From IMG/VR virus record IMGVR_UViG_2690316321_000006: a DNA stretch of 35,177 nucleotides, one strand, 5' to 3'. Source of the DNA: a virus (lineage: Duplodnaviria > Heunggongvirae > Uroviricota > Caudoviricetes). Each line of letters opens with the position of its first letter. The first letter of the stretch is position 1. A program made the position numbers and the translations under genes. This document shows, piece by piece, positions 4,831 through 30,052 of this stretch. The notes under the pieces are model-generated. The model saw only the letters and a program-made list of their open reading frames with translations, was not told the origin of the DNA and did not search any database.

Positions 4831-4863
4831 CCGCTTGTAACCCGGATGATTACAAGCGAAGCC
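4831..4863. promoter_or_regulatory. Late-promoter activator site (Ogr-type dyad) in the divergent P/O control region
   Basis: CCGCTTGTA-N-TTACAAGCGAAGCC; TGT at 4836-4838 and ACA at 4852-4854 separated by 13 nt; centred about 55 nt from plausible start sites on both sides. Confidence 0.55.
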
Positions 4864-8430: not shown

Positions 8431-9084
8431 TTAGTCAAGAGCCGACCAATACTCAGACTCTAACCAAGAGCACAGCATTTCAACATTTCTGATAGCTTCG
8501 AATATTTTCTCTTTAGTCGGGGATATTGTAGGTGGGAATAACCACGATTTTTCTTCCTGTTCGGAAGCCAAAAGTAGCTCACACTCCTGAATAAAGTATG
8601 GGCGAGGATATTTTTCCAAGTCATTTTTTGAGTGAGAAATATTAATTGAGGTAAGTTCCTCAGGATGCTGGACACGATTTCTCACCAAGGGAATTTGTTC
8701 AATTATTTCCAAATTTGCAGGACATTTTGCCATTTCCAACTCAATTTTGTTGAAAATTTCACGATAGCCATTAAACCAACCCTTCTTGAAATTTATATCA
8801 GATTTCACGCTATGATATCCTAAGCGATCTACCCACGCCTTCAGGTACAACTGAAGAGAAGACGAAAGCATCGATAATGCATGGTGCCCACAGGTTTCTA
8901 ATCCCGACTTTGCATCTAACCATTCATCTAAAAAAGCTGGTTCATCACTCTCACCATACGGCTGAATATAAGGTTCCACTTCATTCTCAATATCATTCAT
9001 GATGTTAACAAATGGTGCAGCAGCCGTTTCATAGAAATAAGTAACGAATCTTGTGCGCTCTTTAAGAAAAAATTCAATATCCAC
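8431..9084 (-). CDS. Hypothetical 217-aa accessory protein with R-x4-H motif (possible HEPN-like toxin or effector)
   Basis: AT-rich; the track start at 9102 is TTG, the preferred start is GTG at 9084 directly after AGGAGG; contains LVRNRVQHPEEL (R-x4-H); lies downstream of an RHH gene on the same strand. Confidence 0.5.
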   Translation of the reverse strand: MDIEFFLKERTRFVTYFYETAAAPFVNIMNDIENEVEPYIQPYGESDEPAFLDEWLDAKSGLETCGHHALSMLSSSLQLYLKAWVDRLGYHSVKSDINFKKGWFNGYREIFNKIELEMAKCPANLEIIEQIPLVRNRVQHPEELTSINISHSKNDLEKYPRPYFIQECELLLASEQEEKSWLFPPTISPTKEKIFEAIRNVEMLCSWLESEYWSALD

Positions 9085-9185
9085 AACACCTCCTACACAC
9101 AATGTTTAAGTTAATCAGTGCATATCGACTAATCTGGGCTGAACAAATAATCCTAACTTCTTAGCGCTGCTTGATATCTCCGTAA

Positions 9186-9497: not shown

Positions 9498-9704
9498 ATG
9501 GCTACCGCTAATAGTAACATACGCGCACATTCAAAGCTCTACACCTTCCTGAACGCCCGTTCCAACCGCCTGCTGCGCGAGATCCAGCCCCTGCGTCTGG
9601 TGTCTGTACTGGCAACAACTGAAATCGAGGCTCGCGACCTGCTGGCGGGTTTCCCGCTGGTGTTCGTCTCCTGCAAACCGCTGGAGGTGCGCCATGGTGC
9701 CTGA
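9498..9704 (+). CDS. Small protein resembling Icd-like (host cell division inhibitor-like) proteins of P4-type elements
   Basis: ATG at 9498 with AAGAGG 8 nt upstream; 68 aa; motif pattern recalled from P4-like island small ORFs; weak. Confidence 0.4.
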   Translation: MATANSNIRAHSKLYTFLNARSNRLLREIQPLRLVSVLATTEIEARDLLAGFPLVFVSCKPLEVRHGA

Positions 9705-10014
9705 AACCAATATTCTGTCCTCTGAACTGGCGGACGCGATCCGCAAGATGGATATTTCACACCTGAACGCCGACGATACTCTGCTACTGGCCAACAGCAG
9801 CGAAGAGTGCTACGCCGGACTATGTCACGGCCTGCATTTTCTGGGTAAAACCTTCGTCTCCTTTGCCGACAGCAACGTGCTGGAATTCTCCGCTGAAAGC
9901 CTGTGCCAGCTAGGGCATGGCCTGTCGGCTACCGCGCTTCTGCTTCCGGCGCTGATCCAGCTCCAGAAGTCCGCTGAACTGAAAATCATCAATACCGACA
10001 GCGACGAGGCATAG
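9694..10014 (+). CDS. Hypothetical protein (106 aa), accessory
   Basis: ATG at 9694 with GGAGG 6 nt upstream; overlaps the end of the previous ORF (coupled). Confidence 0.45.
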   Translation: MVPETNILSSELADAIRKMDISHLNADDTLLLANSSEECYAGLCHGLHFLGKTFVSFADSNVLEFSAESLCQLGHGLSATALLLPALIQLQKSAELKIINTDSDEA

Positions 10015-10030: not shown

Positions 10031-10064
10031 CCGCTTGTACTGCCCTCAGTTACAAGCGGAAGCC
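10031..10064 (+). promoter_or_regulatory. Late-promoter activator site (Ogr-type dyad) upstream of X
   Basis: CCGCTTGTA-N-TTACAAGCGGAAGCC; TGT 10036-10038, ACA 10052-10054, 13-nt spacer; near-identical flanks to the P/O, V and FI sites. Confidence 0.55.
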
Positions 10065-13109: not shown

Positions 13110-13373
13110 ATGAATACGTTAAGCGCCAAACATAAAAAAACCTTACAAGCTGTTTTTTCTACGCCAACACCTGTCACGCTGGAATGGCGAAAAATAGAAG
13201 CCTTATTTATTGCTTTGGGGGCTATTGCTACGGAAGGAAACGGTTCCCGCGTCAGGTTTGAAATTAATCAGGTTGTGGCTTCATTTCATCGTCCACACCC
13301 GGAAAAAGAAGCGAAAGCCTATCAGGTTCGCGATGCCAGAACATTCCTTGAAGCTGTAGGGGTAACACCATGA
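13110..13373 (+). CDS. hicA: HicA-family mRNA-interferase toxin
   Basis: 87 aa; conserved ...RFEINQVVASFHRPHPEKE... region typical of HicA; followed by overlapping HicB. Confidence 0.7.
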   Translation: MNTLSAKHKKTLQAVFSTPTPVTLEWRKIEALFIALGAIATEGNGSRVRFEINQVVASFHRPHPEKEAKAYQVRDARTFLEAVGVTP

Positions 13374-13705
13374 TGAATACCATGACATATAGAGGCTATG
13401 CCGCAAAAATTGAATACAGCGATGAAGATCAATGCATTGTTGGTCACGTTGCAGGCATTCGGGATGTCATTGGCTTTCATGCCGATAATGTTGCCGATCT
13501 GCGTAAAGCGTTTGAAGAGGCGGTAGACGACTATCTGGCTTACTGCGAGGAACGGGGCCGGGAGCCGTTGCGTCCGGCCAGCGGAAAAATCAGCCTGCGT
13601 ATTCCACCTGAAATTCACTCTGCCATTAACGTTGCGGCAGAAGTCTCCGGTAAAAGCGTTAACCAGTGGATTAACGATACACTGATGAAGGCTGCGCACG
13701 GTTAA
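13370..13705 (+). CDS. hicB: HicB-family antitoxin
   Basis: 111 aa; ATGA overlap with hicA; HicB-like N-terminal domain plus C-terminal RHH-like segment (ISLRIPPEIHSAINVAAEVSGKSVNQWINDTL). Confidence 0.75.
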   Translation: MMNTMTYRGYAAKIEYSDEDQCIVGHVAGIRDVIGFHADNVADLRKAFEEAVDDYLAYCEERGREPLRPASGKISLRIPPEIHSAINVAAEVSGKSVNQWINDTLMKAAHG

Positions 13706-13744: not shown

Positions 13745-13775
13745 CTTGTAGCCCATTATCCTACAAGCCTTAGCC
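13742..13775 (+). promoter_or_regulatory. Late-promoter activator site (Ogr-type dyad) upstream of V
   Basis: TTACTTGTA-N-CTACAAGCCTTAGCC; TGT 13747-13749, ACA 13763-13765, 13-nt spacer. Confidence 0.55.
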
Positions 13776-15669: not shown

Positions 15670-16276
15670 CTCCCTGCTCCCCAACAATGCCAGCTCGCTG
15701 GAGCAGAATCTGGCGCAAACCGGCAGTCTGACTGAACAAATGCCAGTCCCGCTGCGTAGCTTGTGGCAACCGGATAGCTGCCCCGCCGCGCTGTTGCCTT
15801 ATCTGGCATGGGCGTTTTCCGTTGACCGCTGGGATGAAAACTGGCCAGCCGATACCAAGCGGCAGGTGATTGCTGCTTCTTTCTACATCCATCAGCACAA
15901 AGGCACCATCGGCGCACTGCAGCGTGCGGTGGAACCGCTCGGTTTCCTTATCCGGGTAACCGAATGGTGGCAACTGCGCCCGGAAGGTATTCCCGGCACC
16001 TTCGCGCTGGAAGTCGGCGTGCGCGAACAGGGCATCACCGAGCAGATGTATGTAGAGCTGGAGCGCCTGATCGATGATGCAAAACCCTGTTCACGCCACT
16101 TAATCGGACTGGCGATCAGCCTGCAAAGCAACGGATACGTCTGGTTCAGCGCGACGAACTATACCGGCGATACGCTCACCGTTTATCCCTTTATTCCCGA
16201 ACATGTATACAGCGTGGGCCGTGACTACCGCGGGGCTGCGCTGCATCTGATTGATACGCTAAGGATCGCCCCATGA
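15662..16276 (+). CDS. I: Baseplate / tail protein I (P2 gpI-like)
   Basis: ATG at 15662 overlapping the end of J; the track's upstream extension from 15593 is rejected. Confidence 0.8.
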
Positions 16277-18129
16277 GCGCTACCTATTTCACGCTATTAA
16301 CCACTACTGGCGAATCCGCGCTGGCGACCGCCACCACACAGGGTTCACCTCTTCATCTGACGCAAATGGCCGTGGGCGACGGAAACGGTAACCTGCCAAC
16401 GCCGGAGACCGGTCAAACCCGGCTAGTCAACGAACGTCGACGTGCACCGCTGAATACGCTCAGTATTGACCCTAACAACTCCAACCAGATTATTGCCGAA
16501 CAGGTGCTGCCGGAGGACGTAGGCGGATGGTGGATCAGAGAAATTGGCCTGTACGACGAGCACGACCGGCTGATTGCCGTCGGCAACTGCCCGCCAACCT
16601 ACAAGCCGCAGCTAATCGAAGGTTCGGGTCGCACGCAGATTATCCGCATGGTGTTGATTGTCTCCCATACGGAAAACGTGGAACTGAAAATCGACCCTGC
16701 CGTAGTGTTGGCAACGAGGCAGTATGTGGATGAAAGCCTGACTCGCCACGCGCAGTCCCGTAACCATCCTGACGCCACGTTAACTGCCAAAGGTTTTACT
16801 CAATTAAGCAGTGCGACCAACAGCATCAGCGAAACACTGGCCGCCACGCCCAAAGCCGTGAAAGCAGCCTACGATCTGGCTAATGGAAAATATACCGCAC
16901 TGGATGCCACCACCTCACGTAAAGGGATTGTCCAGCTTAGTAGCTCCATCGACAGTATCAGCGAAACGCTGGCCGCCACGCCTAAAGCCGTGAAAGCGGC
17001 CTACGATCTGGCTAATGGAAAATATACCGCACTGGATGCGACCACCATGCGCAAAGGGATAATCCAGCTTAACAGCGAAACCAATAACGTTAGTGAGGCG
17101 ATGGCCGCAACACCGAAGGCTGTCAAAATAGTAATGGATAATGCCAATAGCCGCTGCCGTGCCTTCAGCGGCAGTCTGTCTATTGGTGGAAATGATGCCT
17201 CATGGACTACGACTGAATTTCTAAGCTGGCTGAGTGTTCAGGGAGCTTTCAGTACCCCCTATTGGATGTGTAAAGGTTCATGGAGTTATGCCTCGAATAA
17301 AGTCATTTCTGATACAGGCTGTGGCGATATTCAACTGGCTGGCGCTGTCATTGAGGTCATGGGTATTGAGTCGGCAAAAACAATCCGCATTACTACCCCC
17401 TCTACATCGACCAAAGGCATAGCCAACGCGCAATTTATCTATATCGATCACGGAGCACAATACTCTCCCGGCTGGCGGCGAGATTTTAATAGCAGAAACT
17501 TACCAGAAGAACTCTACCCAGCAGGCGCTCCCATTCCATGGCCATCCGATGCCATCCCTAGCGGCTATGCACTGATGGTCGGTCAGTCCTTCAATAAAAC
17601 CGCCTACCCTAAACTGGCAATCGCTTACCCCTCCGGTGTAATCCCGGATATGCGCGGCTGGACAATCAAGGGGAAGCCCGCCAGCGGACGCACGATACTG
17701 TCTCAGGAACAGGATGGCGTTAAATCTCATGGTCACACCGCCAGCGCCGCTAACACGGATTTAGGCACTAAAACCGCCAGTTCCACTGATTTGGGTACTA
17801 AAAATACCAGCGCGTTTGACTACGGGACAAAATCAACAGCGTCAGCCGGTGCTCACAACCACGACAGCGGATGGGGTGAAGCCAGCGGTGGGCGTCACGG
17901 TTACTTCGACAGTACCCGTAATAATCAGGGGTCTGCAGACACAGACTGGGATAACTACAAATTCAGAACCAGTACAGACGGTGTCCATACTCACACAGTA
18001 GCCATCGGCGCTCATACTCATTCGCTGACTATCGGCGCGCATAACCACACTATTACGGTGAACGCCGCCGGGAACGCCGAAAACACCGTTAAAAATATCG
18101 CTTTCAACTATATCGTGAGGCTGGCATGA
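16273..18129 (+). CDS. H: Tail fibre protein (P2 gpH-like) with internal tandem repeats and His-rich C-terminal tip
   Basis: 618 aa; ATGA overlap with I; N-terminus [18 protein letters not shown]... P2 H-like; 44-aa tandem repeats; C-terminal HxH motifs. Confidence 0.85.
16801..17130 (+). repeat. Tandem 132-bp (44-codon) repeats inside the tail fibre gene, about 2.5 copies
   Basis: Near-identical DNA blocks ...gaaacNctggccgccacgccYaaagccgtgaaagcRgcctacgatctggctaatggaaaatataccgcactggatgc... at about 16831 and 16963; protein repeat [29 protein letters not shown]. Confidence 0.8.
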
Positions 18130-18833
18130 GCACATTCGCATTTTCCGACGAACCGCAAACCCTGCGCATCTTTAACTACGCGGCAGATACTCAGGAATTT
18201 ATCGGCGTCAGCGACGCCTATATCGCCCCCAACACCGGCTTACCGGAATGCTGTACCACTATCGAACCGCCCGAATGCCAGAGCGGCTTTGCCCTGACAT
18301 TCAACGGAGAAACATGGCTTGCGGTAGAAGATCATCGCGGTAAAACCGCGTTTGATACCGATGCGGGCAGTGAGGTACAGCTTCATCATCTGGGGCCATT
18401 GCCGGATAACGTCACTCTGCTGAAGCCCGATAACGCCTTTGTCCGTTGGGACGGCAAACGCTGGCGGCCTGATATCGAAAAAGCCCGACAGGCAAAGGTG
18501 GCGGAAATAAAGCAGTATCGCGATCGAATCACCGCCGACTACATCATCATCGATAATCACCATTTCCACAGCGACGCTAACAGCCGCATCCAGCAGCTCT
18601 CGCTCACCAAAATGGGCGTGGCTAAACAAATACCGGCAGGCTTAATGTGGCAGACCAAAAATCACAACCTGATTGAACTGACCAACGAAATCGCCGCCCG
18701 GTTTGAAACCGAAACAATGGCGCACGATATGCGCCTGTTCGCCGCTGCCCAGCAGCATATTGCCGCCGTTGAAGCATTGACGGAGGTGCAGGCGGTTATG
18801 GGTTACGACTACTCGTCAGGATGGCAACCATGA
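18126..18833 (+). CDS. G: Tail fibre assembly chaperone (P2 gpG-like)
   Basis: 235 aa; ATGA overlap with H; position after H. Confidence 0.75.
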
Positions 18834-19288
18834 GTCAGGTTTACGCGGCGTTCTACCGTGGCCGGGCTGAACGTTTTTTCAGCCTTGCCCGGCTCTCCGA
18901 CTGGTTGACGCGACAGGTCACGCGCGGCCCTTACTCTCACTGCGAACTGGTCGAATGCCAGCCGGATGGCCTGTTTATCTGTTACTCATCATCGGTACGG
19001 GATAAAGGCGTGCGCAGCAAACGAATGCCGCTGCCGATTGAGAAATGGGATTTACTCCCGATCAACGCCGATCCGCTGGCACTGGAAACCTTTTTCCGTC
19101 AGCACGACGATAAAGGTTACGACTGGCTGGGAGCCATAGGTTTTGTGTTACTCAGTCAGGGCAAACAGGAGCGCCTGTTTTGCAGCGAGTTCTGCGCCGA
19201 ATTTCTGCATCTGCGTGATAGCTGGCGTTATTCACCTAATCTGCTGTATGCGCTGATCTGCAGTCGATCTGGAAAATTGACAATATGA
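18830..19288 (+). CDS. Hypothetical accessory protein (152 aa) with His/Cys motifs, translationally coupled to G and dam
   Basis: ATG at 18830 overlapping G stop (ATGA); motifs YSHCELV and LFCSEFCAEF weakly suggest a permuted papain-like (NlpC/P60 or LRAT-like) fold; occupies the P2 Z/fun position. Confidence 0.5.
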   Translation: MSQVYAAFYRGRAERFFSLARLSDWLTRQVTRGPYSHCELVECQPDGLFICYSSSVRDKGVRSKRMPLPIEKWDLLPINADPLALETFFRQHDDKGYDWLGAIGFVLLSQGKQERLFCSEFCAEFLHLRDSWRYSPNLLYALICSRSGKLTI

Positions 19289-20043
19289 ATACGTTACCCA
19301 TTATTCCGTGGATCGGCGGTAAGCGCAGGCTGGCAAAACACATTCTGCCGCTGTTTCCCAAACACCGTTGCTACGTTGAACCGTTCTGCGGGGCGGCGGC
19401 GTTGTTCTTTATGAAACAGCCCGCACAGGCCGAGGTGCTGAATGATATCAACGGCGACGTTACCAACCTCTACCGCGTACTCCAGCACCATTTAGAAGAG
19501 TTTGTCCGCCAGTTTAAATGGTCGCTGGTCAGCCGCGAAATGTACCGCTGGCTCCAGATCACCCCGGAAGAAACGCTGACCGATATCCAGCGCGCGGCGC
19601 GCTTCTACTACCTGCAAAAGCTGGCATTCGGCGGCAAAGTGGAAAGTCGCACATTCGGTACCGCCACCACCTCACCGCCGCGCCTGAACCTGCTGCGTAT
19701 GGAAGAGGATTTATCCGCCGCCCATCTGCGGCTGGCGCGCGTCTGTATTGAAAATCTGGACTGGGCCGACTGTATTCGCCGCTATGACCGCCCGCATACC
19801 CTATTCTACTGCGACCCTCCATACTGGAAAACCGAAGGCTACGGCGTGCCATTTGGCCTTGAGCAGTACCAGCGAATGGCAGAGCTGGCGCGCACCATGC
19901 AGGGCCGGATGATTATCTCGGTTAATGACATCCCGGAAATGCGCGATATCTTCCACGGCCTGACATTCTCAACGGTAGGGATTCGCTATACCGTAGGCAG
20001 AAAGCCAGCCAGCGCCACATCAGAACTGATTATCCTGAATTAA
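19285..20043 (+). CDS. dam: DNA N6-adenine methyltransferase, Dam family (orphan, no cognate restriction enzyme seen)
   Basis: 252 aa; DPPY catalytic motif (YCDPPYW) and Dam-like N-terminus (IPWIGGKRRL, EPFCGAAALFF); ATGA overlap with the upstream ORF. Confidence 0.85.
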   Translation: MNTLPIIPWIGGKRRLAKHILPLFPKHRCYVEPFCGAAALFFMKQPAQAEVLNDINGDVTNLYRVLQHHLEEFVRQFKWSLVSREMYRWLQITPEETLTDIQRAARFYYLQKLAFGGKVESRTFGTATTSPPRLNLLRMEEDLSAAHLRLARVCIENLDWADCIRRYDRPHTLFYCDPPYWKTEGYGVPFGLEQYQRMAELARTMQGRMIISVNDIPEMRDIFHGLTFSTVGIRYTVGRKPASATSELIILN

Positions 20044-20052
20044 AAACCGCTT

Positions 20053-20085
20053 CTGCTTGTAGTGCCAGTGGTTACAAGTGGAAGC
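20053..20085 (+). promoter_or_regulatory. Late-promoter activator site (Ogr-type dyad) upstream of FI
   Basis: CTGCTTGTA-N-TTACAAGTGGAAGCC; TGT 20058-20060, ACA 20074-20076, 13-nt spacer. Confidence 0.55.
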
Positions 20086-20148: not shown

Positions 20149-21327
20149 ATGGCAACCGACTACCACCACGGCGCGCGCGTTATTGAAATCAATGAAGGCG
20201 TGCGCCCGATCCGTACCATCTCCACCGCCGTGATCGGCATCGTCTGCACCGAATCAGACGCCGATGAAAAAACCTTTCCCCTTGATACTCCGGTGCTGTT
20301 AACCGACGTGCGATCTGCGCTGGGTAAAGCCGGTGATAGCGGTACGCTGGCGCACTCTCTGGATGCCATCGCCGACCAGACACAGCCGGTGGTAGTCGCC
20401 GTGCGCGTAGCCGAAGGCGACTCCGCCGCCGAAACCACCGCCAATATCATCGGCGGCAGTACGCCAGCCGGGAAATACACCGGCATGAAGGCGCTGCTGG
20501 ACTCGCAAACCAAACTGAAAATAAAACCGCGCATTCTGGCGGTACCGGGGCTGGATTCTCTGCCCGTCGCCACCGAACTGGTCAGCATTTCACAACAGCT
20601 TCGCGCCTTCAGCTATCTGTCGGCGTTCGGCGCGCAGACCAAAGAAGAGGCGGTGCTGTATCGCGATCAGCTCGGTGCGCGAGAGGCGATGATTATCTGG
20701 CCGGATTTTGTCGGCTTTGATACACAGGCTGCCGCCGAACGTACCCTATACGCCACCGCCCGCGCCGTGGGCCTGCGTGCAAAAATTGATGAAGAAACCG
20801 GCTGGCATAAAACGCTGTCCAACGTTGACGTCAACGGCGTGACCGGCATTTCCCGCAGCGTATTCTGGGATCTGCAGTCCACCGCCACCGACTCCGATTA
20901 CCTCAACAGCCACGACGTCACCACGCTGATTTGCAACGGCGGCTATCGCTTCTGGGGATCGCGCACCTGCAGCACCGATCCGCTGTTTGCCTTTGAGAAC
21001 TACACCCGCACCGCGCAGGTGCTGGCGGATACCATCGCCGACGCCCACTTCTGGGCGGTAGATAAACCGCAACACGCCTCCCTGTTCCGCGACATTATCG
21101 AAGGCGTGAACGCCAAATTCCGCGAATTGAAAGGCAACGGCTACATCGTCGACGGCTCCGCATGGTTCGATCCCGCCACCAACACGCCGGACATCCTGAA
21201 AGCGGGTAAAGCGTATATCGACTACGACTACACCCCGGTGCCGCCGCTGGAAAACCTGATGTTCCGCCAGCGCATCACTGACCGCTATCTGGTCAATCTG
21301 GCTGAATCCATCGCCACCACCGTGTAA
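20149..21327 (+). CDS. FI: Tail sheath protein (P2 gpFI-like)
   Basis: ATG at 20149 with GGAGG 8 nt upstream (track start 20062 rejected); 393 aa. Confidence 0.9.
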   Translation: MATDYHHGARVIEINEGVRPIRTISTAVIGIVCTESDADEKTFPLDTPVLLTDVRSALGKAGDSGTLAHSLDAIADQTQPVVVAVRVAEGDSAAETTANIIGGSTPAGKYTGMKALLDSQTKLKIKPRILAVPGLDSLPVATELVSISQQLRAFSYLSAFGAQTKEEAVLYRDQLGAREAMIIWPDFVGFDTQAAAERTLYATARAVGLRAKIDEETGWHKTLSNVDVNGVTGISRSVFWDLQSTATDSDYLNSHDVTTLICNGGYRFWGSRTCSTDPLFAFENYTRTAQVLADTIADAHFWAVDKPQHASLFRDIIEGVNAKFRELKGNGYIVDGSAWFDPATNTPDILKAGKAYIDYDYTPVPPLENLMFRQRITDRYLVNLAESIATTV

Positions 21328-25573: not shown

Positions 25574-26676
25574 CGATGTTAAACGCACTCTTAAACGCCC
25601 AGCCGCAACCGGAGTACAGCGTGGTGCTGAACGGTAAGGACATTACGCGGAATCTGGACAACCGCTTAATCAGCCTGCGTATCACCGACAACCGGGGCTT
25701 TGAGGCCGACGAACTGCAGCTCGAACTGGACGACAGCGACGGCCTGCTGGCGTTTCCGGCAAAGGGCGAAAAGCTAACGGTTTCTCTGGGCTGGAAGGGT
25801 GACGGCGTGATGCACCAGAATGTCTTCACAGTGGACGAACTGGAGCACAGCGGCGCACCGGACGTACTCAGCCTCCGCGCCCGCAGCGCCGATTTCCGCG
25901 ATTCGCTGAACGTTAAACGGGAACAGAGCTACCATGATGTGACGCTGGGCGCGATTGTGCAAACCGTGGCGGCACGTCATAAGCTGGAATCAACCGTCAG
26001 CGGCGAGCTGGCTGGGATCGCCATTGAGCACGTTGACCAGACTAACGAGTCTGATGCGTCCTTCCTAACCCGGCTGGCGCAAATGCACGGCGCTATCGCC
26101 TGCGTGAAAAATGATGCTCTGCTGCTGATGCCGACAGGTTCCGGTAAAAGCGCCAGCGGCAAGCCGCTGCCGGTCGCAACCATTAACCGCGAGGACGGCG
26201 ACAGCCACCGGTTCAGCATCGCGGACAGGGAAGCCTATACCGGCGTAACGGCCTACTGGCTGGATACGCGGCAGGCTAAAAAGCAGTCAACTGACGTGAA
26301 GCGCAAGACACGGAAAAACCTTCCGCAAACGCAACCAACAGAATCGCCGACGTCAGACACCTCATTCAACGCCGATAACGTGATGGTCGGCGAAGAGGGA
26401 AATATCAAGGTGCTGCGCCACACCTATGCCAACAAAAATAACGCCTACAGAGCGGCAGAAAGCGCGTGGGAGCTATTACAGCGAGGCGCGGCAACGTTCA
26501 GCCTGAATCTTGCGCGTGGACGGCCCGATTTGTTCCCGGAATTGCCGGTGCCGGTGCAGGTGAAGGGGTTTAAGGCTGAGATTGATGGCACCGCGTGGGT
26601 GATTACGCGGTGCGTGCATACGTTGGATGGCGGTACTGGTTATGTCACCGCATTAGAAATGGAATTAAGTTTATAG
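25570..26676 (+). CDS. D: Tail protein D (P2 gpD-like)
   Basis: 368 aa; ATGA overlap with U; last late gene as in P2. Confidence 0.85.
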   Translation: MTMLNALLNAQPQPEYSVVLNGKDITRNLDNRLISLRITDNRGFEADELQLELDDSDGLLAFPAKGEKLTVSLGWKGDGVMHQNVFTVDELEHSGAPDVLSLRARSADFRDSLNVKREQSYHDVTLGAIVQTVAARHKLESTVSGELAGIAIEHVDQTNESDASFLTRLAQMHGAIACVKNDALLLMPTGSGKSASGKPLPVATINREDGDSHRFSIADREAYTGVTAYWLDTRQAKKQSTDVKRKTRKNLPQTQPTESPTSDTSFNADNVMVGEEGNIKVLRHTYANKNNAYRAAESAWELLQRGAATFSLNLARGRPDLFPELPVPVQVKGFKAEIDGTAWVITRCVHTLDGGTGYVTALEMELSL

Positions 26677-27927
26677 TAATCCTAAATGAACCATAATAGC
26701 CATTAAGATCATTCCACCACCTAAGGCTGTCGGAATCCAGCATAAGCATTGAAAGAAAAGAAGGTAACGATTTAACATGACCTGATTTTTGTCTAAATTA
26801 TCCTTTGCATTGCATACTAATTTTTTCAAATCTTCTGTATAACCTACAGATTTTTTCACTAATGGGGAAAATATAATATCTTTAGCATCACAAATCATCC
26901 TAAACTGTGTGTATTGACTTCTTACAATAAAAAACATAATTATCGACGTGAGCAATACACCTAAAAAAACCACTAACATTTCCGGCAGGGTATTTAATTT
27001 TATCATGCCAAAAGTAGCAACCAAAGAAACAGGAATACCTAAAAGCTTAGCTATCATGTCTGACATTATTTTTGAAAAACGCTCAGCTAAATTAGCTTCT
27101 GCCTCTGCCACTTCCTTTCTTACTTTATGAAATGAAAAACCACTAAGATATACACCGAGGTTATTATGGTATAGTTTTAGAAATTCATCCCACTCACAGA
27201 ATAAAAAATGAAACTGTTTCTTTACATCGATTGATTCAAGAAAATCGACCACCGTATTAATGAAAATCCCTTTTCGCTCAAAATAATTATCATCCGTTAT
27301 AGCTTTTTTTTCATCAGAAAAAGATTCGATGATTTTTAAATCCTTAATACCTGTTAAAAGAAGTGAATAATCAACATTAGTTTCAATAATTAAAGGTAAT
27401 GACTTAGCATTAGTATTTTTCAAGAAAACTAACTTATGGCATACATCATCACTTTTACTATTGCTGTAGTGTGCAACTTTTGATAGACATAAAATAAAAT
27501 CACAAAGATTCTTTAAAACAGATAGTTCTGGTATTTTTGCTAATCCCTCAACCATTCCTTCATTAAAATAAAAATCTTCCTCAACCAAGTAAAAAGACTT
27601 TCTTAAAATACCTCTATTTAACATCGGAGACTTTTGAATTAGATCTTTAATATCGATAAAAAATGACTCACTGGCTCCAGTTGATATAGAGATTGTCAGT
27701 GTTATTGATGTTCCTTTAGCGGGAAGGCTATCATCAACATCTATATCCACATCATCAATGACAATCTCTTCAATTTCTCCCCACGCGGTATGAGGTTGCA
27801 AAGAAACTAAGAGTTCATATATATGAGCATCATAAGAAATAGTTGCTGAAAAACGATTATTAATAGCATCAAATTTAGGACGCCCTACATATCTGAAAAG
27901 CTCAACAACCGTTTCAAAACATGACAT
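26671..27927 (-). CDS. Accessory protein with large soluble N-terminal domain and 2-3 C-terminal transmembrane helices (candidate membrane effector); third gene of AT-rich operon
   Basis: Preferred ATG at 27927 (track start 27936 is TTG); strongly AT-rich; hydrophobic segments LVVFLGVLLTSIIMFFIV and LLFFQCLCWIPTALGGGMILMAIMVHLGLL at the C-terminus; its stop overlaps the D stop convergently by 6 bp. Confidence 0.6.
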   Translation of the reverse strand: MSCFETVVELFRYVGRPKFDAINNRFSATISYDAHIYELLVSLQPHTAWGEIEEIVIDDVDIDVDDSLPAKGTSITLTISISTGASESFFIDIKDLIQKSPMLNRGILRKSFYLVEEDFYFNEGMVEGLAKIPELSVLKNLCDFILCLSKVAHYSNSKSDDVCHKLVFLKNTNAKSLPLIIETNVDYSLLLTGIKDLKIIESFSDEKKAITDDNYFERKGIFINTVVDFLESIDVKKQFHFLFCEWDEFLKLYHNNLGVYLSGFSFHKVRKEVAEAEANLAERFSKIMSDMIAKLLGIPVSLVATFGMIKLNTLPEMLVVFLGVLLTSIIMFFIVRSQYTQFRMICDAKDIIFSPLVKKSVGYTEDLKKLVCNAKDNLDKNQVMLNRYLLFFQCLCWIPTALGGGMILMAIMVHLGLL

Positions 27928-27985
27928 ATTAAGCAACCTTATTTTTCGCTATTTCTTTCTTTTATTAACTCATCAAGCAATTGAG

Positions 27986-29086
27986 CTATTTCACTTTTTT
28001 CTCAGGAGTAATCCGAGTAAAAGTTAAATGTCCAGTTTTCTTATTATAGCATATCTCATTATCAAGAGTATTGCCTAGTAAACTAGATTTAAACTCAAAA
28101 TTAACATTATCACTTGTATATTTAATATTTCTGTTTTTCTTAACTACTGATTTGCTTACCCTAAATTCCACAGGCACACGAATACTTTCACTATTCAAAT
28201 GAGCATATAATTCTTCTGACAATTTATCTTTAATGTCATCTTCTAAATTAACCATATGCTTCGCTGCCATCTCACTAACAACAGAAAGCTTAGCTGAAAT
28301 GTTATTCTCAGAACAATCGAATAAATACTCAATAATTTCATTTTTAAATTTACGGGCATTATCCTTTAATTCTTGATGATTTCTGAAGAAGTTAAAAGAT
28401 TCATTAATTAAATTACTCGTAGCTTTAGTTGATGTATTACCTTTATCACAACCTAAGGCAGTAATGAAATACCCTGAAGTTGTCTGGTTAGAACTGGGAC
28501 TAACAAAACTTAAATAATTAACATCCTGTCTTTCATTCTCATCAGCGGAAATATATTTATCATACAAATCATAGTTTATTCGTGCCGCCTGATTTAGTTT
28601 TGCCAGATCAAGATGCTCTAACTCCTTTGGTTCTAATTTATCACTAATAACTATACCTTCCTTTTGCTTAATCATTGCAATAAGAAAGTAACGCACGGAT
28701 TTACTGATATAATCAGCAAAAAGAAGTAATCCTCCTGATGCAGCAGGTCGATCCTTTGCCTCAATATATAACTGATGCATAACATTTTTTGATAATCCTA
28801 TAAACAATTCATCGTCTAACTTCTTGGATGTATCATTCCGATATTTATCAAATGCCGCTGGAAAAGGCCCCCTACGTGTTTCATCTAAATTAAATATACC
28901 ATAATGCGAGCTATTAGATTTTTTACCATACAATGCGGCTATACTGGACACTAGTTTAATTACGATTTCATTATTTCGGTCAAGAACCGTATCACGGCGA
29001 CTATATGGTTTTGAGTGATCGAAATCTTTATGTTGCTCTTTTATCAACCTATGAACAACCACGCACCCTAATGAAATATCAGACAT
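27986..29086 (-). CDS. NdpA/YejK-like nucleoid-associated-protein-family member (accessory); second gene of AT-rich operon
   Basis: 366 aa; collinear similarity to E. coli YejK as recalled from memory (MSDISLGCVVVHRLIKEQ vs MSLDINQIALHQLIKRDEQ; ASGGLLLFADY vs ADGGFVLFCHY; YLSFV vs YLTFL); RBS TGAGG upstream. Confidence 0.65.
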   Translation of the reverse strand: MSDISLGCVVVHRLIKEQHKDFDHSKPYSRRDTVLDRNNEIVIKLVSSIAALYGKKSNSSHYGIFNLDETRRGPFPAAFDKYRNDTSKKLDDELFIGLSKNVMHQLYIEAKDRPAASGGLLLFADYISKSVRYFLIAMIKQKEGIVISDKLEPKELEHLDLAKLNQAARINYDLYDKYISADENERQDVNYLSFVSPSSNQTTSGYFITALGCDKGNTSTKATSNLINESFNFFRNHQELKDNARKFKNEIIEYLFDCSENNISAKLSVVSEMAAKHMVNLEDDIKDKLSEELYAHLNSESIRVPVEFRVSKSVVKKNRNIKYTSDNVNFEFKSSLLGNTLDNEICYNKKTGHLTFTRITPEKKVK

Positions 29087-29100
29087 ATAACCTCACAATC

Positions 29101-29673
29101 CTATGGTAAATAAAAATCTTTCGCTTTATTTTCTAAATCAGTCCATCTACTGCTAATATTCTTTTCCTTACAAACAAGAAAAGCCTGATACCCTAAAAAC
29201 TCTTTCGTTTTCTTTAAATTATCTTCAGTAACATGACTCTTTTCTTCATTGTTGTTTTTCCATCCACAGAAATATATTCTGTCTGCTTCTTCAACATCCC
29301 TGACATGCACAGCAATATCAGTATATTTTGCCTTATTCTTAACAGTAACCGATGGAGGGATTTTCCCATCAAAATCTTCAAAAAACTTACTTGTTCTAAA
29401 TGGATTGGCAGGGTCATATTTCAAACCTAGAGCCTTGCATAATTCTTTATAAGTCTCACTTCCCAGATTAGGATTTATGACGAATCCCTTCTCGACTTTT
29501 AGACGAAAGCAAAGATTAGCGCCTAATGCTCCGAAAAGAAGCTCAAACGGTTTTCCATCAATAAAGAAAAATACATCAAAATGTAAATTATTGTGTCTGT
29601 ATGGGAATTTAACCCTATCCAATTTTTGCTCTGTCATGTTCCTGTAAAGAGCAACCAGATTATTCAACTTCAT
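29101..29673 (-). CDS. Hypothetical 190-aa protein; first gene of AT-rich accessory operon
   Basis: ATG at 29673 with GGAGG 5 nt upstream; AT-rich; no recognisable motif; 14-bp gap to the next gene. Confidence 0.55.
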   Translation of the reverse strand: MKLNNLVALYRNMTEQKLDRVKFPYRHNNLHFDVFFFIDGKPFELLFGALGANLCFRLKVEKGFVINPNLGSETYKELCKALGLKYDPANPFRTSKFFEDFDGKIPPSVTVKNKAKYTDIAVHVRDVEEADRIYFCGWKNNNEEKSHVTEDNLKKTKEFLGYQAFLVCKEKNISSRWTDLENKAKDFYLP

Positions 29674-29713
29674 TTTGCCTCCATACAGACAATAACCAAA
29701 TTCATTCTACTCG

Positions 29714-30052
29714 TTATCCCTTAGCTGCTTTCCCTACTCCCGGTTGCGCAAGCGCAGCGCTAACCGTGTCAAGGGTGGACTGGTGTTCTGGCGTAGCAGA
29801 ACGATAGTTTTCCACCAACACACTCTCTTTACTGGACAACGTAACTACAGGCGTGCGGTTGCCTGTTAGAACATACAGAACATCAACTCCCGCTGCCGCT
29901 ATGCCAGCAAGATAGTCACTGTCCGGCTTACGCAACCCATTCTCATAGTTGCTTTGTGCGTTTTTCTTCACGCCCCCAAGTTGTCCAAAGCCGTCTTGAT
30001 CAAGTCCAAGTCGGATACGTTCTTCCTTCAAACGGATGCCAAATTCTTTCAT
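29714..30052 (-). CDS. HTH (XRE/CI-like) transcriptional repressor, putative immunity repressor
   Basis: 112 aa; N-terminal helix-turn-helix; divergent from the small regulator / ogr / primase operon, as for P2 C versus cox. Confidence 0.7.
   Translation of the reverse strand: MKEFGIRLKEERIRLGLDQDGFGQLGGVKKNAQSNYENGLRKPDSDYLAGIAAAGVDVLYVLTGNRTPVVTLSSKESVLVENYRSATPEHQSTLDTVSAALAQPGVGKAAKG

What the first reader, a model, noticed from the sequence alone, without database searches (positions are those of the whole stretch)
18830..20043. Unknown Cys/His-motif protein translationally coupled to an orphan Dam-family methyltransferase in the G/FI (Z/fun) cargo position
P2 carries accessory Z/fun between G and FI. 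Here that slot holds a 152-aa protein of unknown function (motifs YSHCELV and CSEFCAEF, possibly a permuted papain-like enzyme) and a Dam-like N6-adenine methyltransferase with the DPPY motif. Both are joined by ATGA overlaps to each other and to the fibre chaperone gene, so they are made with late proteins. No restriction endonuclease partner is present. The methyltransferase could protect progeny DNA against host restriction or act epigenetically; the upstream protein's role is unknown.
Basis: partly seen in the sequence, partly recalled or inferred. Interest (0 to 1): 0.5.

Follow-up and report, generated by a model that had tools for sequence, protein, structure and literature searches.

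The report
Tail-fibre-linked cysteine hydrolase plus orphan methylase
The two genes are real but unrelated: the small protein is an uncharacterised papain-like enzyme that almost always follows a tail-fibre chaperone gene in many phages, and the methyltransferase is an ordinary phage anti-restriction enzyme that happens to sit next to it.

Summary
A 152-aa ORF (18830-19288) and a 252-aa D12/Dam-family methyltransferase (19285-20043) follow the tail-fibre chaperone gene through ATGA overlaps. They lie between fibre gene H and sheath gene FI of a P2-like E. coli prophage.

It is not a partner of the methyltransferase. It directly follows a DUF4376 tail-fibre chaperone gene in 80/82 viral loci, in 67/74 genome loci and in 43/44 loci found starting from the chaperone. 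This order also holds in the marine myovirus V22. The downstream gene varies.

The methyltransferase belongs to the phage B3 ORF48 / phiE125 gp27 group. In Mu-like phages this group sits in the mom position behind a Com regulator. Here Com is absent and the gene is coupled to the late PV-like operon. No endonuclease partner was found. The EcoDam GATC-contact residues are not conserved.

My best reading is a fibre-module thiol hydrolase of unknown substrate next to an independent self-protective methylase. The methylase is ordinary. The fibre-chaperone-hydrolase triad appears undescribed.

The parts
13747..13765 (+). Late-promoter-type dyad TGTA-N11-TACA, the PV-like head of the operon V-W-J-I-H-chaperone-152aa-methyltransferase
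   Evidence: The pattern occurs exactly 4 times in the window (4836, 10036, 13747, 20058) against 0.21 expected, and each copy lies in an intergenic region ahead of a late gene block. Function as an Ogr/Delta site is inferred from P2 biology.
16273..18129 (+). Tail fibre gene (P2 H-like)
   Evidence: Pfam Phage_tail_fib 2.5e-61, Phage_fiber_2 8.6e-55, Collar 1.8e-9.
18126..18833 (+). Tail-fibre assembly chaperone with a C-terminal DUF4376 domain (P2 G position)
   Evidence: Pfam DUF4376 9e-13, weak Caudo_TAP, phrog_1807/105. AF2 model pLDDT 92.8. A DUF4376 chaperone was shown experimentally in phage V22 (PMC7289586).
18830..19288 (+). 152-aa permuted NlpC/P60 (YiiX-like) putative cysteine hydrolase or acyltransferase, with His37, Tyr97 and Cys118
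19285..20043 (+). Orphan D12-class (Dam-family) N6-adenine DNA methyltransferase
   Evidence: PF02086 6.1e-29, TIGR00571 9.9e-31 (below its cut-off), EcoDam 2g1p 3.4e-14, PADLOC MTase_II 2.5e-115. 66% identical to phage B3 Dam/ORF48 and phiE125 gp27.
20058..20076 (+). Late-promoter-type dyad, the PF-like head of the sheath/tube operon; it marks the 3' boundary of the unit
20149..21327 (+). Tail sheath gene FI (context only)
   Evidence: Pfam Phage_sheath_1 1.3e-21, Phage_sheath_1C 9.1e-21, Gp18_domIII_N 2.2e-9.

Best explanation
Two independent late functions are attached to the 3' end of the tail-fibre operon of a P2-like prophage.

(1) The 152-aa protein is a cytoplasmic, probably active, circularly permuted NlpC/P60 thiol enzyme of the YaeF/YiiX type. 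Its predicted catalytic residues are Cys118 and His37, with Tyr97 as the oxyanion residue. It forms a conserved, translationally coupled gene pair with the DUF4376 tail-fibre chaperone. I infer that it acts on the fibre-chaperone complex late in infection. The likeliest action is hydrolysis of an amide bond, peptide or acyl, that processes or releases the chaperone from the fibre tip. It is not needed for fibre folding itself.

(2) The methyltransferase is an orphan Dam-family N6-adenine enzyme of the group that fills the mom position in Mu-like phages. Here it has lost its Com regulator. It is expressed by re-initiation after the hydrolase gene, so it methylates progeny DNA before packaging and protects it against restriction in the next host.

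Shown here: fold, conserved residues, gene order, coupling, operon boundaries, family relationships. Inferred: substrate of the hydrolase, and activity, specificity and role of the methyltransferase. The confidence given covers the whole statement. The identity and synteny claims alone would rate about 0.85, and the proposed substrate of the hydrolase about 0.35.
For: Hydrolase identity:
- AF2 model pLDDT 89.9.
- The profile aligns the SH and CSEF motifs to 3kw0.
- YiiX YSH49 / YDF115 / YCSE128 equal YSH37 / YDW97 / FCSE118 (residue roles from PMC3142127).

Link to the chaperone:
- 80/82 viral loci and 67/74 species-representative genome loci have the chaperone directly upstream. Starts and stops usually overlap.
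- Searching from the chaperone side, 43/44 loci have the hydrolase gene next.
- 27/43 upstream proteins hit DUF4376.
- The same order is seen in Acidovorax AP1, Pseudomonas pAN, Moraxella Mcat2, Pasteurella Pm86 and SuMu.
- It is also seen in Alteromonas V22. ORF28 there is a homologue (hhalign 95%, E 3.7e-8).

Independence from the methylase:
- The downstream gene varies.
- A methylase lies within 2.5 kb downstream in 32/73 genome loci, of two different families, usually behind a Com ORF.
- L102 keeps the chaperone and methylase but only a remnant of the hydrolase gene.

Methylase:
- Intact WxGGK, FxGxx, DIN and DPPY motifs.
- Relatives at the mom position (PMC3299994).
- Burkholderia P2-like phage KS5 has chaperone-Com-methylase-FI (PMC3091744).

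Late expression: dyads at 13747 and 20058 only.
Against: - No biochemical data exist for any family member.
- In V22, co-expressing fibre and chaperone alone gave functional fibres (PMC7289586), so the enzyme is not required for folding or binding.
- L102 shows the gene can be lost.
- Ralstonia jumbo phage RP12 carries a homologue with no fibre or chaperone nearby.
- Seven genome loci show no detectable chaperone upstream.
- The Glu that completes the triad in YiiX and BcPPNE aligns with Ser here.
- Tight linkage could reflect co-transfer with the host-range module rather than a shared substrate.
- For the methylase, the target sequence is unknown and protection is untested. It scores below the NCBIfam dam cut-off.
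Confidence: 0.5

Rival explanations
1. The 152-aa enzyme targets the host envelope rather than the fibre. It would be a lipid, lipoprotein or peptidoglycan amidase or acyltransferase that acts at lysis, once the holin opens the membrane, or that alters the receptor so progeny are not trapped on debris. It would travel with the receptor-binding module for that reason.
For: YiiX-type enzymes have a hydrophobic S1 pocket with bound fatty acid and are proposed fatty-acyl amidases (PMC3142127). Fold neighbours include lipid-acting PLAAT4 and the acyltransferase RID. In several siphovirus-type loci the next genes are holin, CHAP endolysin and spanin. Receptor-masking genes are known to sit beside receptor-binding genes (my own knowledge: T5 llp, cor).
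Against: No signal peptide or membrane segment is visible in the sequence. The constant neighbour across hosts as different as E. coli, Haemophilus, Neisseria, Moraxella, Pseudomonas and Alteromonas is the chaperone, while fibres vary and receptors presumably vary too. In P2-like and Mu-like genomes the lysis genes are far away.
Confidence: 0.22
2. The 152-aa protein and the methyltransferase form one functional two-gene system, for example a DNA-modification or defence/counter-defence pair, as the translational coupling suggests.
For: ATGA overlap in the window. An adenine methylase lies within 2.5 kb downstream in 32/73 genome loci and in 21/82 viral loci.
Against: Most loci have no methylase. 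The methylases belong to two different families, D12 and Hia5-like. Most are separated from the hydrolase gene by a Com gene and 130-1500 nt. P2-like relatives go straight from the hydrolase gene to the sheath gene (L034, L043, L049, L057). L102 keeps the methylase without the hydrolase. The same methylase group occurs in B3, phiE125 and VP882, and none of these phages was among the 25 phage records carrying a homologue of the hydrolase. PADLOC has no model for the 152-aa protein.
Confidence: 0.04
3. The 152-aa protein is a counter-defence enzyme, for example a deconjugating cysteine protease that removes host-attached modifiers such as ubiquitin-like tags from tail-fibre proteins.
Against: The closest folds are the YiiX type with a hydrophobic acyl pocket, not deubiquitinases. 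Near-obligate pairing with one chaperone family, in lytic and temperate phages of many hosts, is unlike the patchy distribution of anti-defence genes. There is no direct evidence.
Confidence: 0.05
4. The methyltransferase is a GATC Dam. It would ensure full methylation of fast-replicating phage DNA, for mismatch-repair avoidance or packaging, or reprogramme host gene expression, rather than provide anti-restriction.
For: The best solved relatives are EcoDam and DpnM. Many records annotate homologues as 'methyl-directed repair DNA adenine methylase'.
Against: EcoDam residues that read GATC (K9, L122, R124, P134; from my knowledge of Horton 2006) align with P8, K118, E120 and S130. The score is below the NCBIfam dam subfamily cut-off. 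Relatives sit in the Mu mom position, a known anti-restriction slot (PMC3299994). E. coli already has Dam.
Confidence: 0.2

Closest known systems
E. coli YiiX (PDB 2if6) and Bacillus cereus BcPPNE (PDB 3kw0): YaeF/YiiX-like permuted NlpC/P60 enzymes (MEROPS C92, Pfam PF05708)
   Different: About 15% identity. No member reaches the PF05708 model (0/37). There is no signal peptide, whereas YiiX has one. The triad Glu aligns with Ser. Extra lineage-conserved Cys38, Cys51 and Cys122. The gene is phage-encoded and tied to a tail-fibre chaperone. The function of YiiX itself is unproven.
Alteromonas myovirus V22 ORF28 'permuted papain-like amidase' (MN877442)
   Same: Homologous (hhalign 95%, E 3.7e-8). 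Same position directly after a DUF4376 fibre chaperone, with overlapping start. Listed in its paper only as a metabolism-related gene.
   Different: 136 aa, 19% identity, and lacks Cys51 and Cys122. It is a virulent marine phage with no methyltransferase next to it. It weakly touches Pfam C92 (19.8 bits, below the 27-bit cut-off).
Pseudomonas phage B3 ORF48 (Dam modification methylase with Com) and Burkholderia phage phiE125 gp27
   Same: 66% identical D12 methyltransferases. They are phage-borne, without an endonuclease partner, and lie downstream of tail genes.
   Different: B3 has a Com translational regulator directly upstream. The window has none and uses ATGA coupling to the preceding gene. 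Their specificities are not established in the papers I could read.
Hia5 / Hin1523 / Nme1821 non-specific adenine methyltransferases of Mu-like prophages
   Same: Same genomic slot: after the fibre, chaperone and hydrolase genes in SuMu-type loci. Same presumed role as Mu Mom, anti-restriction.
   Different: A different, very divergent subfamily (only 22 bits to PF02086). Com-regulated. Shown experimentally to be non-specific, which is not known for the window enzyme.
Burkholderia P2-like phage KS5 genes 22-19 (chaperone, Com, N4/N6 methylase, FI)
   Same: A DNA methylase inserted between the fibre chaperone gene and sheath gene FI of a P2-like phage.
   Different: The methylase is of the PF01555 family, has Com, and no hydrolase gene is listed there.
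P2 Z/fun
   Same: Same slot between G and FI.
   Different: Z/fun is a lysogenic-conversion gene that excludes T5 and is expressed from the prophage (my own knowledge). The genes here are chained to the late operon and unrelated in sequence.

Membership tests
Permuted NlpC/P60, YaeF/YiiX-like (MEROPS C92 / Pfam PF05708) | Papain-like alpha/beta fold with circular permutation: the His-bearing strand is N-terminal to the Cys-bearing helix | tested here: met
Permuted NlpC/P60, YaeF/YiiX-like (MEROPS C92 / Pfam PF05708) | Invariant catalytic Cys and His | tested here: met
   H37 and C118 are invariant in 37 diverse members. They align to the SH and CSE motifs of 3kw0, of YiiX (SH motif only by hhalign; CSE by inspection) and of V22 ORF28.
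Permuted NlpC/P60, YaeF/YiiX-like (MEROPS C92 / Pfam PF05708) | Conserved tyrosine (oxyanion residue; Tyr115 of YiiX in the motif YDF) | tested here: met
   Y97-D98 are invariant, in the motif YDW. The spatial position could not be checked because no coordinates were available.
Permuted NlpC/P60, YaeF/YiiX-like (MEROPS C92 / Pfam PF05708) | Acidic third triad residue (Glu64 of YiiX and BcPPNE) | tested here: not met
   The profile alignment puts S54 (Ser or Ala in the family) opposite Glu64. Invariant S53, S55 and E39 lie nearby and may substitute.
Permuted NlpC/P60, YaeF/YiiX-like (MEROPS C92 / Pfam PF05708) | Score above the Pfam PF05708 gathering threshold | tested here: not met
   0 of 37 members hit PF05708 even at E <= 10. 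V22 ORF28 scores 19.8 bits against 27 needed; YiiX scores 167.8.
Permuted NlpC/P60, YaeF/YiiX-like (MEROPS C92 / Pfam PF05708) | Thiol-dependent amidase or acyl-transfer activity | not testable with these tools
   Needs enzyme assays with C118A and H37A controls.
D12-class (Dam-family) N6-adenine DNA methyltransferase | Match to PF02086 above threshold over the full length | tested here: met
   101.9 bits against 22, residues 9-225.
D12-class (Dam-family) N6-adenine DNA methyltransferase | AdoMet motif I (FxGxG type) N-terminal and catalytic DPPY C-terminal (alpha order), plus WxGGK and DIN | tested here: met
   WIGGKRR 9-15, FCGAA 34-38, NDING 53-57, DPPY 177-180. The second Gly of motif I is Ala.
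D12-class (Dam-family) N6-adenine DNA methyltransferase | NCBIfam TIGR00571 'dam' subfamily cut-off | tested here: not met
   107.4 bits against 114.85. The equivalog PRK10904 scores 63 against 441.
D12-class (Dam-family) N6-adenine DNA methyltransferase | GATC-reading residues of EcoDam (K9, L122, R124, P134) | tested here: not met
   They align with P8, K118, E120 and S130. The residue roles come from my own knowledge of Horton et al. 2006.
D12-class (Dam-family) N6-adenine DNA methyltransferase | Methyl transfer to adenine N6 at a defined target | not testable with these tools
   Needs methylome sequencing or a restriction-protection assay.
Orphan (solitary) phage methyltransferase | No cognate restriction endonuclease in the element | tested here: met
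   All large ORFs of the prophage were accounted for or screened and no nuclease family was found. Four ORFs stay unannotated (223 aa, 106 aa, 190 aa DUF6037, 421 aa DS1_2-like), so the exclusion is not absolute.
Mu mom-position Com-regulated modification module | Com zinc-ribbon translational activator directly upstream of the modification gene | tested here: not met
   The gap in the window is 0 nt. Com-like CxxC...CxxC ORFs are present in 13 of 20 related loci.
Fibre / DUF4376-chaperone / hydrolase module (defined here) | Hydrolase gene immediately downstream of, and usually overlapping, a DUF4376 chaperone gene that follows a tail-fibre gene | tested here: met
   Window. Elsewhere: 80/82, 67/74 and 43/44 loci. 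V22.
P2 Z/fun-type lysogenic-conversion cargo | Own promoter and expression from the prophage | tested here: inconclusive
   There is no late dyad and no convincing sigma-70 site ahead of either gene. The one promoter-like site (19277-19304) would start transcription inside the methylase gene. Expression data are lacking.

The most novel reading that the evidence does not exclude
The permuted NlpC/P60 enzyme is a dedicated, trans-acting 'uncapping' or processing enzyme for tail fibres. It would remove, trim or deacylate the DUF4376 chaperone that caps the fibre tip. This would play the role that autoproteolysis plays for the built-in chaperone domains of the K1F and T5 fibres. It would be a widespread, so far unrecognised enzymatic step in tail-fibre maturation, spanning myo-, sipho- and Mu-like phages of beta- and gamma-proteobacteria.
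Probability: 0.25. Interest if true: 0.7.

Novelty: new variant of a known kind. Interest (0 to 1): 0.5.

Why it matters
Tail-fibre modules decide host range and are the parts swapped when phages and pyocins are engineered. An enzyme gene rides with one large class of fibre chaperones in more than 90% of the loci examined. The family has about 1,300 clusters at 50% identity with E <= 1e-10. At least 202 of 5,426 complete E. coli genomes carry a homologue, and all the listed records I examined annotate it as 'hypothetical protein'. If the enzyme processes the fibre-chaperone complex, it adds a missing step to fibre maturation and may have to be co-transferred for engineered fibres to work. Its only functional label in the databases I searched, 'enoyl-CoA hydratase/carnithine racemase-like', finds no support here and looks like a misnomer. 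The methyltransferase part matters less. It adds a P2-like, Com-less example of a known anti-restriction strategy.

Tried and rejected
- Pfam, NCBIfam and PADLOC scans of the 152-aa protein, and of all 37 family members at E <= 10, gave nothing useful.
- A single-sequence PDB search gave only a chance hit, ELF3 at E 0.16.
- hhalign of the family against the single YiiX sequence was weak (probability 5%), though it aligned the YSH motif.
- Apparent chaperone-hydrolase fusion ORFs of 293-327 aa turned out to be artefacts of my ORF caller reading out-of-frame through the overlapping gene.
- Long proteins in the representative search were assembly chimeras or extensions, not domain fusions.
- The afdb50 fold library was unavailable.
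- BFVD returned only uncharacterised phage proteins.
- The search for related loci with the broad chaperone alignment failed and had to be repeated with a closer alignment.
- The P2 hotspot papers (PMC9122126, PMC13586616) do not mention methyltransferases in this slot.
- The SuMu proteomics paper gives no information on gp51.
- The phiE125 paper was not held.
- A sigma-70-like site at 19277-19304 was rejected as a methylase promoter, because transcription would begin after the start codon and the number of sites is near chance.
Full report
**The observation.** The window is a complete P2-like prophage of E. coli. It is 96-98% identical over this region to prophages in four of 5,426 complete E. 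coli genomes. In strain L725 the prophage lies between yfgI and guaA.

Four genes are chained by 4-nt ATGA overlaps:
- tail fibre H, 16273-18129
- a fibre assembly chaperone, 18126-18833
- a 152-aa ORF, 18830-19288
- a 252-aa methyltransferase, 19285-20043

The sheath gene FI follows at 20149. ATG 18830, not the upstream ATG 18821, is the likely start. It has an AGGA 8 nt upstream, homologues begin MSQVY, and PGAP nt.

**Operon structure.** The dyad TGTA-N11-TACA occurs exactly four times in the window, at 4836, 10036, 13747 and 20058. That compares with 0.21 expected, and no shuffle out of 100 reached four. Each copy lies in an intergenic region ahead of a late gene block: the capsid genes, the lysis genes, baseplate gene V, and sheath gene FI. 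By analogy with the Ogr-dependent late promoters of P2 (my own knowledge), the two genes are the last cistrons of the V-to-chaperone late operon, and the sheath gene has its own promoter. Neither gene has a convincing promoter of its own.

**What the 152-aa protein is.** Pfam, NCBIfam and PADLOC find nothing. PHROGs places it in phrog_1128 (4.8e-51), labelled 'enoyl-CoA hydratase/carnithine racemase-like'. Nothing here supports that label.

An alignment of 37 diverse homologues shows invariant Y35-S36-H37-C38-E39, C51, S53, S55, R57-D58, G60-V61-R62, Y97-D98 and F117-C118-S119-E120. A profile of this alignment hits PDB 3kw0, 'cysteine peptidase' (E 0.003), and aligns the SH and CSEF motifs.

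Xu et al. 2011 (PMC3142127) define the catalytic residues of this group as Cys128/His49/Glu64/Tyr115 in YiiX. The YiiX sequence shows YSH49, YDF115 and YCSE128, which match YSH37, YDW97 and FCSE118 here. The acidic triad residue is not matched; a Ser aligns there.

At the level of sequence families, the protein belongs to a group that the Pfam C92 model does not reach (0/37).

**Size and spread of the family.** A profile search of 1.84 billion representatives gives 2,788 hits at E <= 1e-3 and 1,312 at E <= 1e-10. Almost all of the 150 best hits listed are stand-alone proteins of 135-180 aa. The few long ones are chimeras or extensions.

Species-representative genomes give 204 loci. The best 80, which are the ones listed, are mostly from Enterobacterales, Pasteurellaceae, Neisseriaceae, Moraxellaceae and Pseudomonas. 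At least 202 of 5,426 complete E. coli genomes carry a DNA-level homologue, and all 25 listed records annotate it as 'hypothetical protein'.

**What it travels with.**
- In 80 of 82 viral loci the gene directly upstream belongs to one cluster of roughly 200-aa proteins, preceded by a tail-fibre gene.
- 27 of 43 of these upstream proteins hit Pfam DUF4376.
- In species-representative genomes, 67 of 74 loci have this chaperone within about 120 nt upstream, with a median gap of a few nucleotides.
- The reverse test used only patterns from the chaperone's DUF4376 region. It found 44 loci with room downstream, and 43 carry the hydrolase gene next.
- The one exception, L102, retains the first codons (MSQIFAASYRERA...) of a deleted copy.

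Annotated phages show the same order: SuMu, Pasteurella Pm86, Moraxella Mcat2, Pseudomonas pAN and Acidovorax AP1. Ralstonia jumbo phage RP12 is an exception, with an isolated copy.

The virulent Alteromonas myovirus V22 has ORF26 fibre, ORF27 DUF4376 chaperone and ORF28 'permuted papain-like amidase', with overlapping stop and start. ORF28 is a homologue of this family (hhalign 95%, E 3.7e-8). It weakly touches Pfam Peptidase_C92 (19.8 bits, below threshold), so it links the family to C92. The V22 paper lists ORF28 only as a 'protein catabolism' gene (PMC7289586).

**What follows it.** The downstream neighbour varies:
- a D12 methyltransferase
- a Hia5-like methyltransferase
- sheath and tube genes directly (P2-like L034, L043, L049, L057)
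- a holin / CHAP-endolysin cassette
- a convergent RlaP nucleotidyltransferase at the prophage end
- a tape-measure gene
- unknown genes

An adenine methyltransferase lies within 2.5 kb downstream in 32 of 73 genome loci and in 21 of 82 viral loci. In most of these a Com-type zinc-ribbon ORF lies between the two genes. This is the com-mom arrangement at the right end of Mu-like genomes (PMC3299994). The recurrent proximity is therefore best explained by two modules sharing the end of the tail-fibre region, not by a joint function.

**How the hydrolase may work.** This part is inference. Gonzalez-Serrano et al. [quoted passage not shown] Those domains are removed by autoproteolysis. The authors propose that the trans-acting versions form transient caps on fibre tips.

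A thiol hydrolase encoded and translated immediately after such a chaperone is a plausible agent for processing or releasing the cap, or for removing or adding an acyl group on the complex.

Points against an essential folding role:
- In V22, fibre plus chaperone alone gave functional fibres.
- L102 has lost the gene.
- RP12 has a copy without fibre genes.

**The methyltransferase.** It matches PF02086 (101.9 bits) and EcoDam, DpnM and T4 Dam structures. It carries WIGGKRR, FCGAA, NDING and DPPY. It falls below the NCBIfam dam cut-offs.

The EcoDam residues that read GATC (K9, L122, R124, P134; my own knowledge) align with P8, K118, E120 and S130. GATC specificity is therefore not supported, and the target remains unknown.

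Its relatives, at 64-73% identity, are phage enzymes: E. coli PhiKM, Klebsiella KP12, Vibrio VP882, Pseudomonas B3 (annotated with a Com regulator), Shewanella MuM16-1 and Burkholderia phiE125 gp27. The Burkholderia P2-like phage KS5 already shows chaperone-Com-methylase-FI (PMC3091744), so a methylase in the G/FI slot is not new.

No endonuclease was found in the window. What is particular here is the loss of Com and the direct coupling to the preceding late gene. The most likely role is methylation of progeny DNA before packaging as protection against restriction, as for Mom and Hia5. This is inferred, not shown.

**Verdict.** The methyltransferase is an ordinary new member of a known kind. 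The 152-aa protein is a divergent, unannotated branch of the permuted NlpC/P60 enzymes, and its near-obligate pairing with DUF4376 fibre chaperones appears not to have been described. Its substrate is unknown, and the proposed role in fibre-chaperone processing is a testable hypothesis.

Noticed in passing
window 4836-4854, 10036-10054, 13747-13765, 20058-20076: Four copies of the dyad TGTA-N11-TACA (0.21 expected by chance). Each lies in an intergenic region ahead of a late gene block. They look like the Ogr/Delta-dependent late promoters of this P2-like phage.
   Followed up: partly
window 13110-13705 (+): An 87-aa ORF overlapping a HicB-family antitoxin gene (Pfam HicB 2.7e-18) looks like a HicAB toxin-antitoxin pair inserted between the tail-completion genes and baseplate gene V. 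The 87-aa ORF was not searched, so the HicA call is a guess. Strain L725 carries an 'abortive phage resistance protein' at the same spot, so this is a variable cargo site.
   Followed up: partly
window 26671-30052 (-): Downstream of gene D lie a 421-aa protein and an NA37/YejK-like nucleoid-associated protein that weakly match NCBIfam DS1_2 and DS1_1 'anti-phage' models, both below cut-off. A DUF6037 protein and an HTH repressor-like gene follow. In L725 the 421-aa gene is replaced by a 'GTP pyrophosphokinase'. This is probably a defence hotspot.
   Followed up: partly
L102 3705-3810: A P2-like viral contig with the same chaperone (63% identical) and methylase (78%) keeps only the first 13 or so codons of the hydrolase gene (MSQIFAASYRERA...). 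This is a natural deletion of the gene.
   Followed up: yes
protein P0251 (307 aa, metagenome): The N-terminal 84 residues of the 152-aa protein are joined in frame to an internal part of the sheath protein. This is either a deletion derivative that removed the methylase or an assembly chimera.
   Followed up: no
L016, L020, L022, L023, L028 (about 200-1400 nt downstream of the hydrolase gene): A recurrent 242-aa protein with no Pfam hit and a DIDTV (DxD-like) motif follows the hydrolase gene in several enterobacterial prophages. It is possibly a glycosyltransferase-type conversion gene.
   Followed up: no
L214 5317-7241 (E. coli FDAARGOS_497) and L008, L013, L014, L018: In many E. coli prophages the hydrolase gene is the last phage gene. 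It faces a convergent RlaP-family nucleotidyltransferase (Pfam 1.3e-95) and, in L214, a slipin-family gene.
   Followed up: no
window 19277-19304 (+): A sigma-70-like site, TTGACA-16-CATTAT (10 of 12 matches), straddles the hydrolase/methylase junction. Transcription from it would start inside the methylase gene, so it is probably a chance match.
   Followed up: partly
window 8431-9102 (-) and 9694-10014 (+): Two ORFs of 223 and 106 aa lie between the head-completion and lysis genes and have no Pfam, NCBIfam or PADLOC match. The equivalent region of L725 holds a RelE/ParE toxin-antitoxin pair and hypothetical genes.
   Followed up: no
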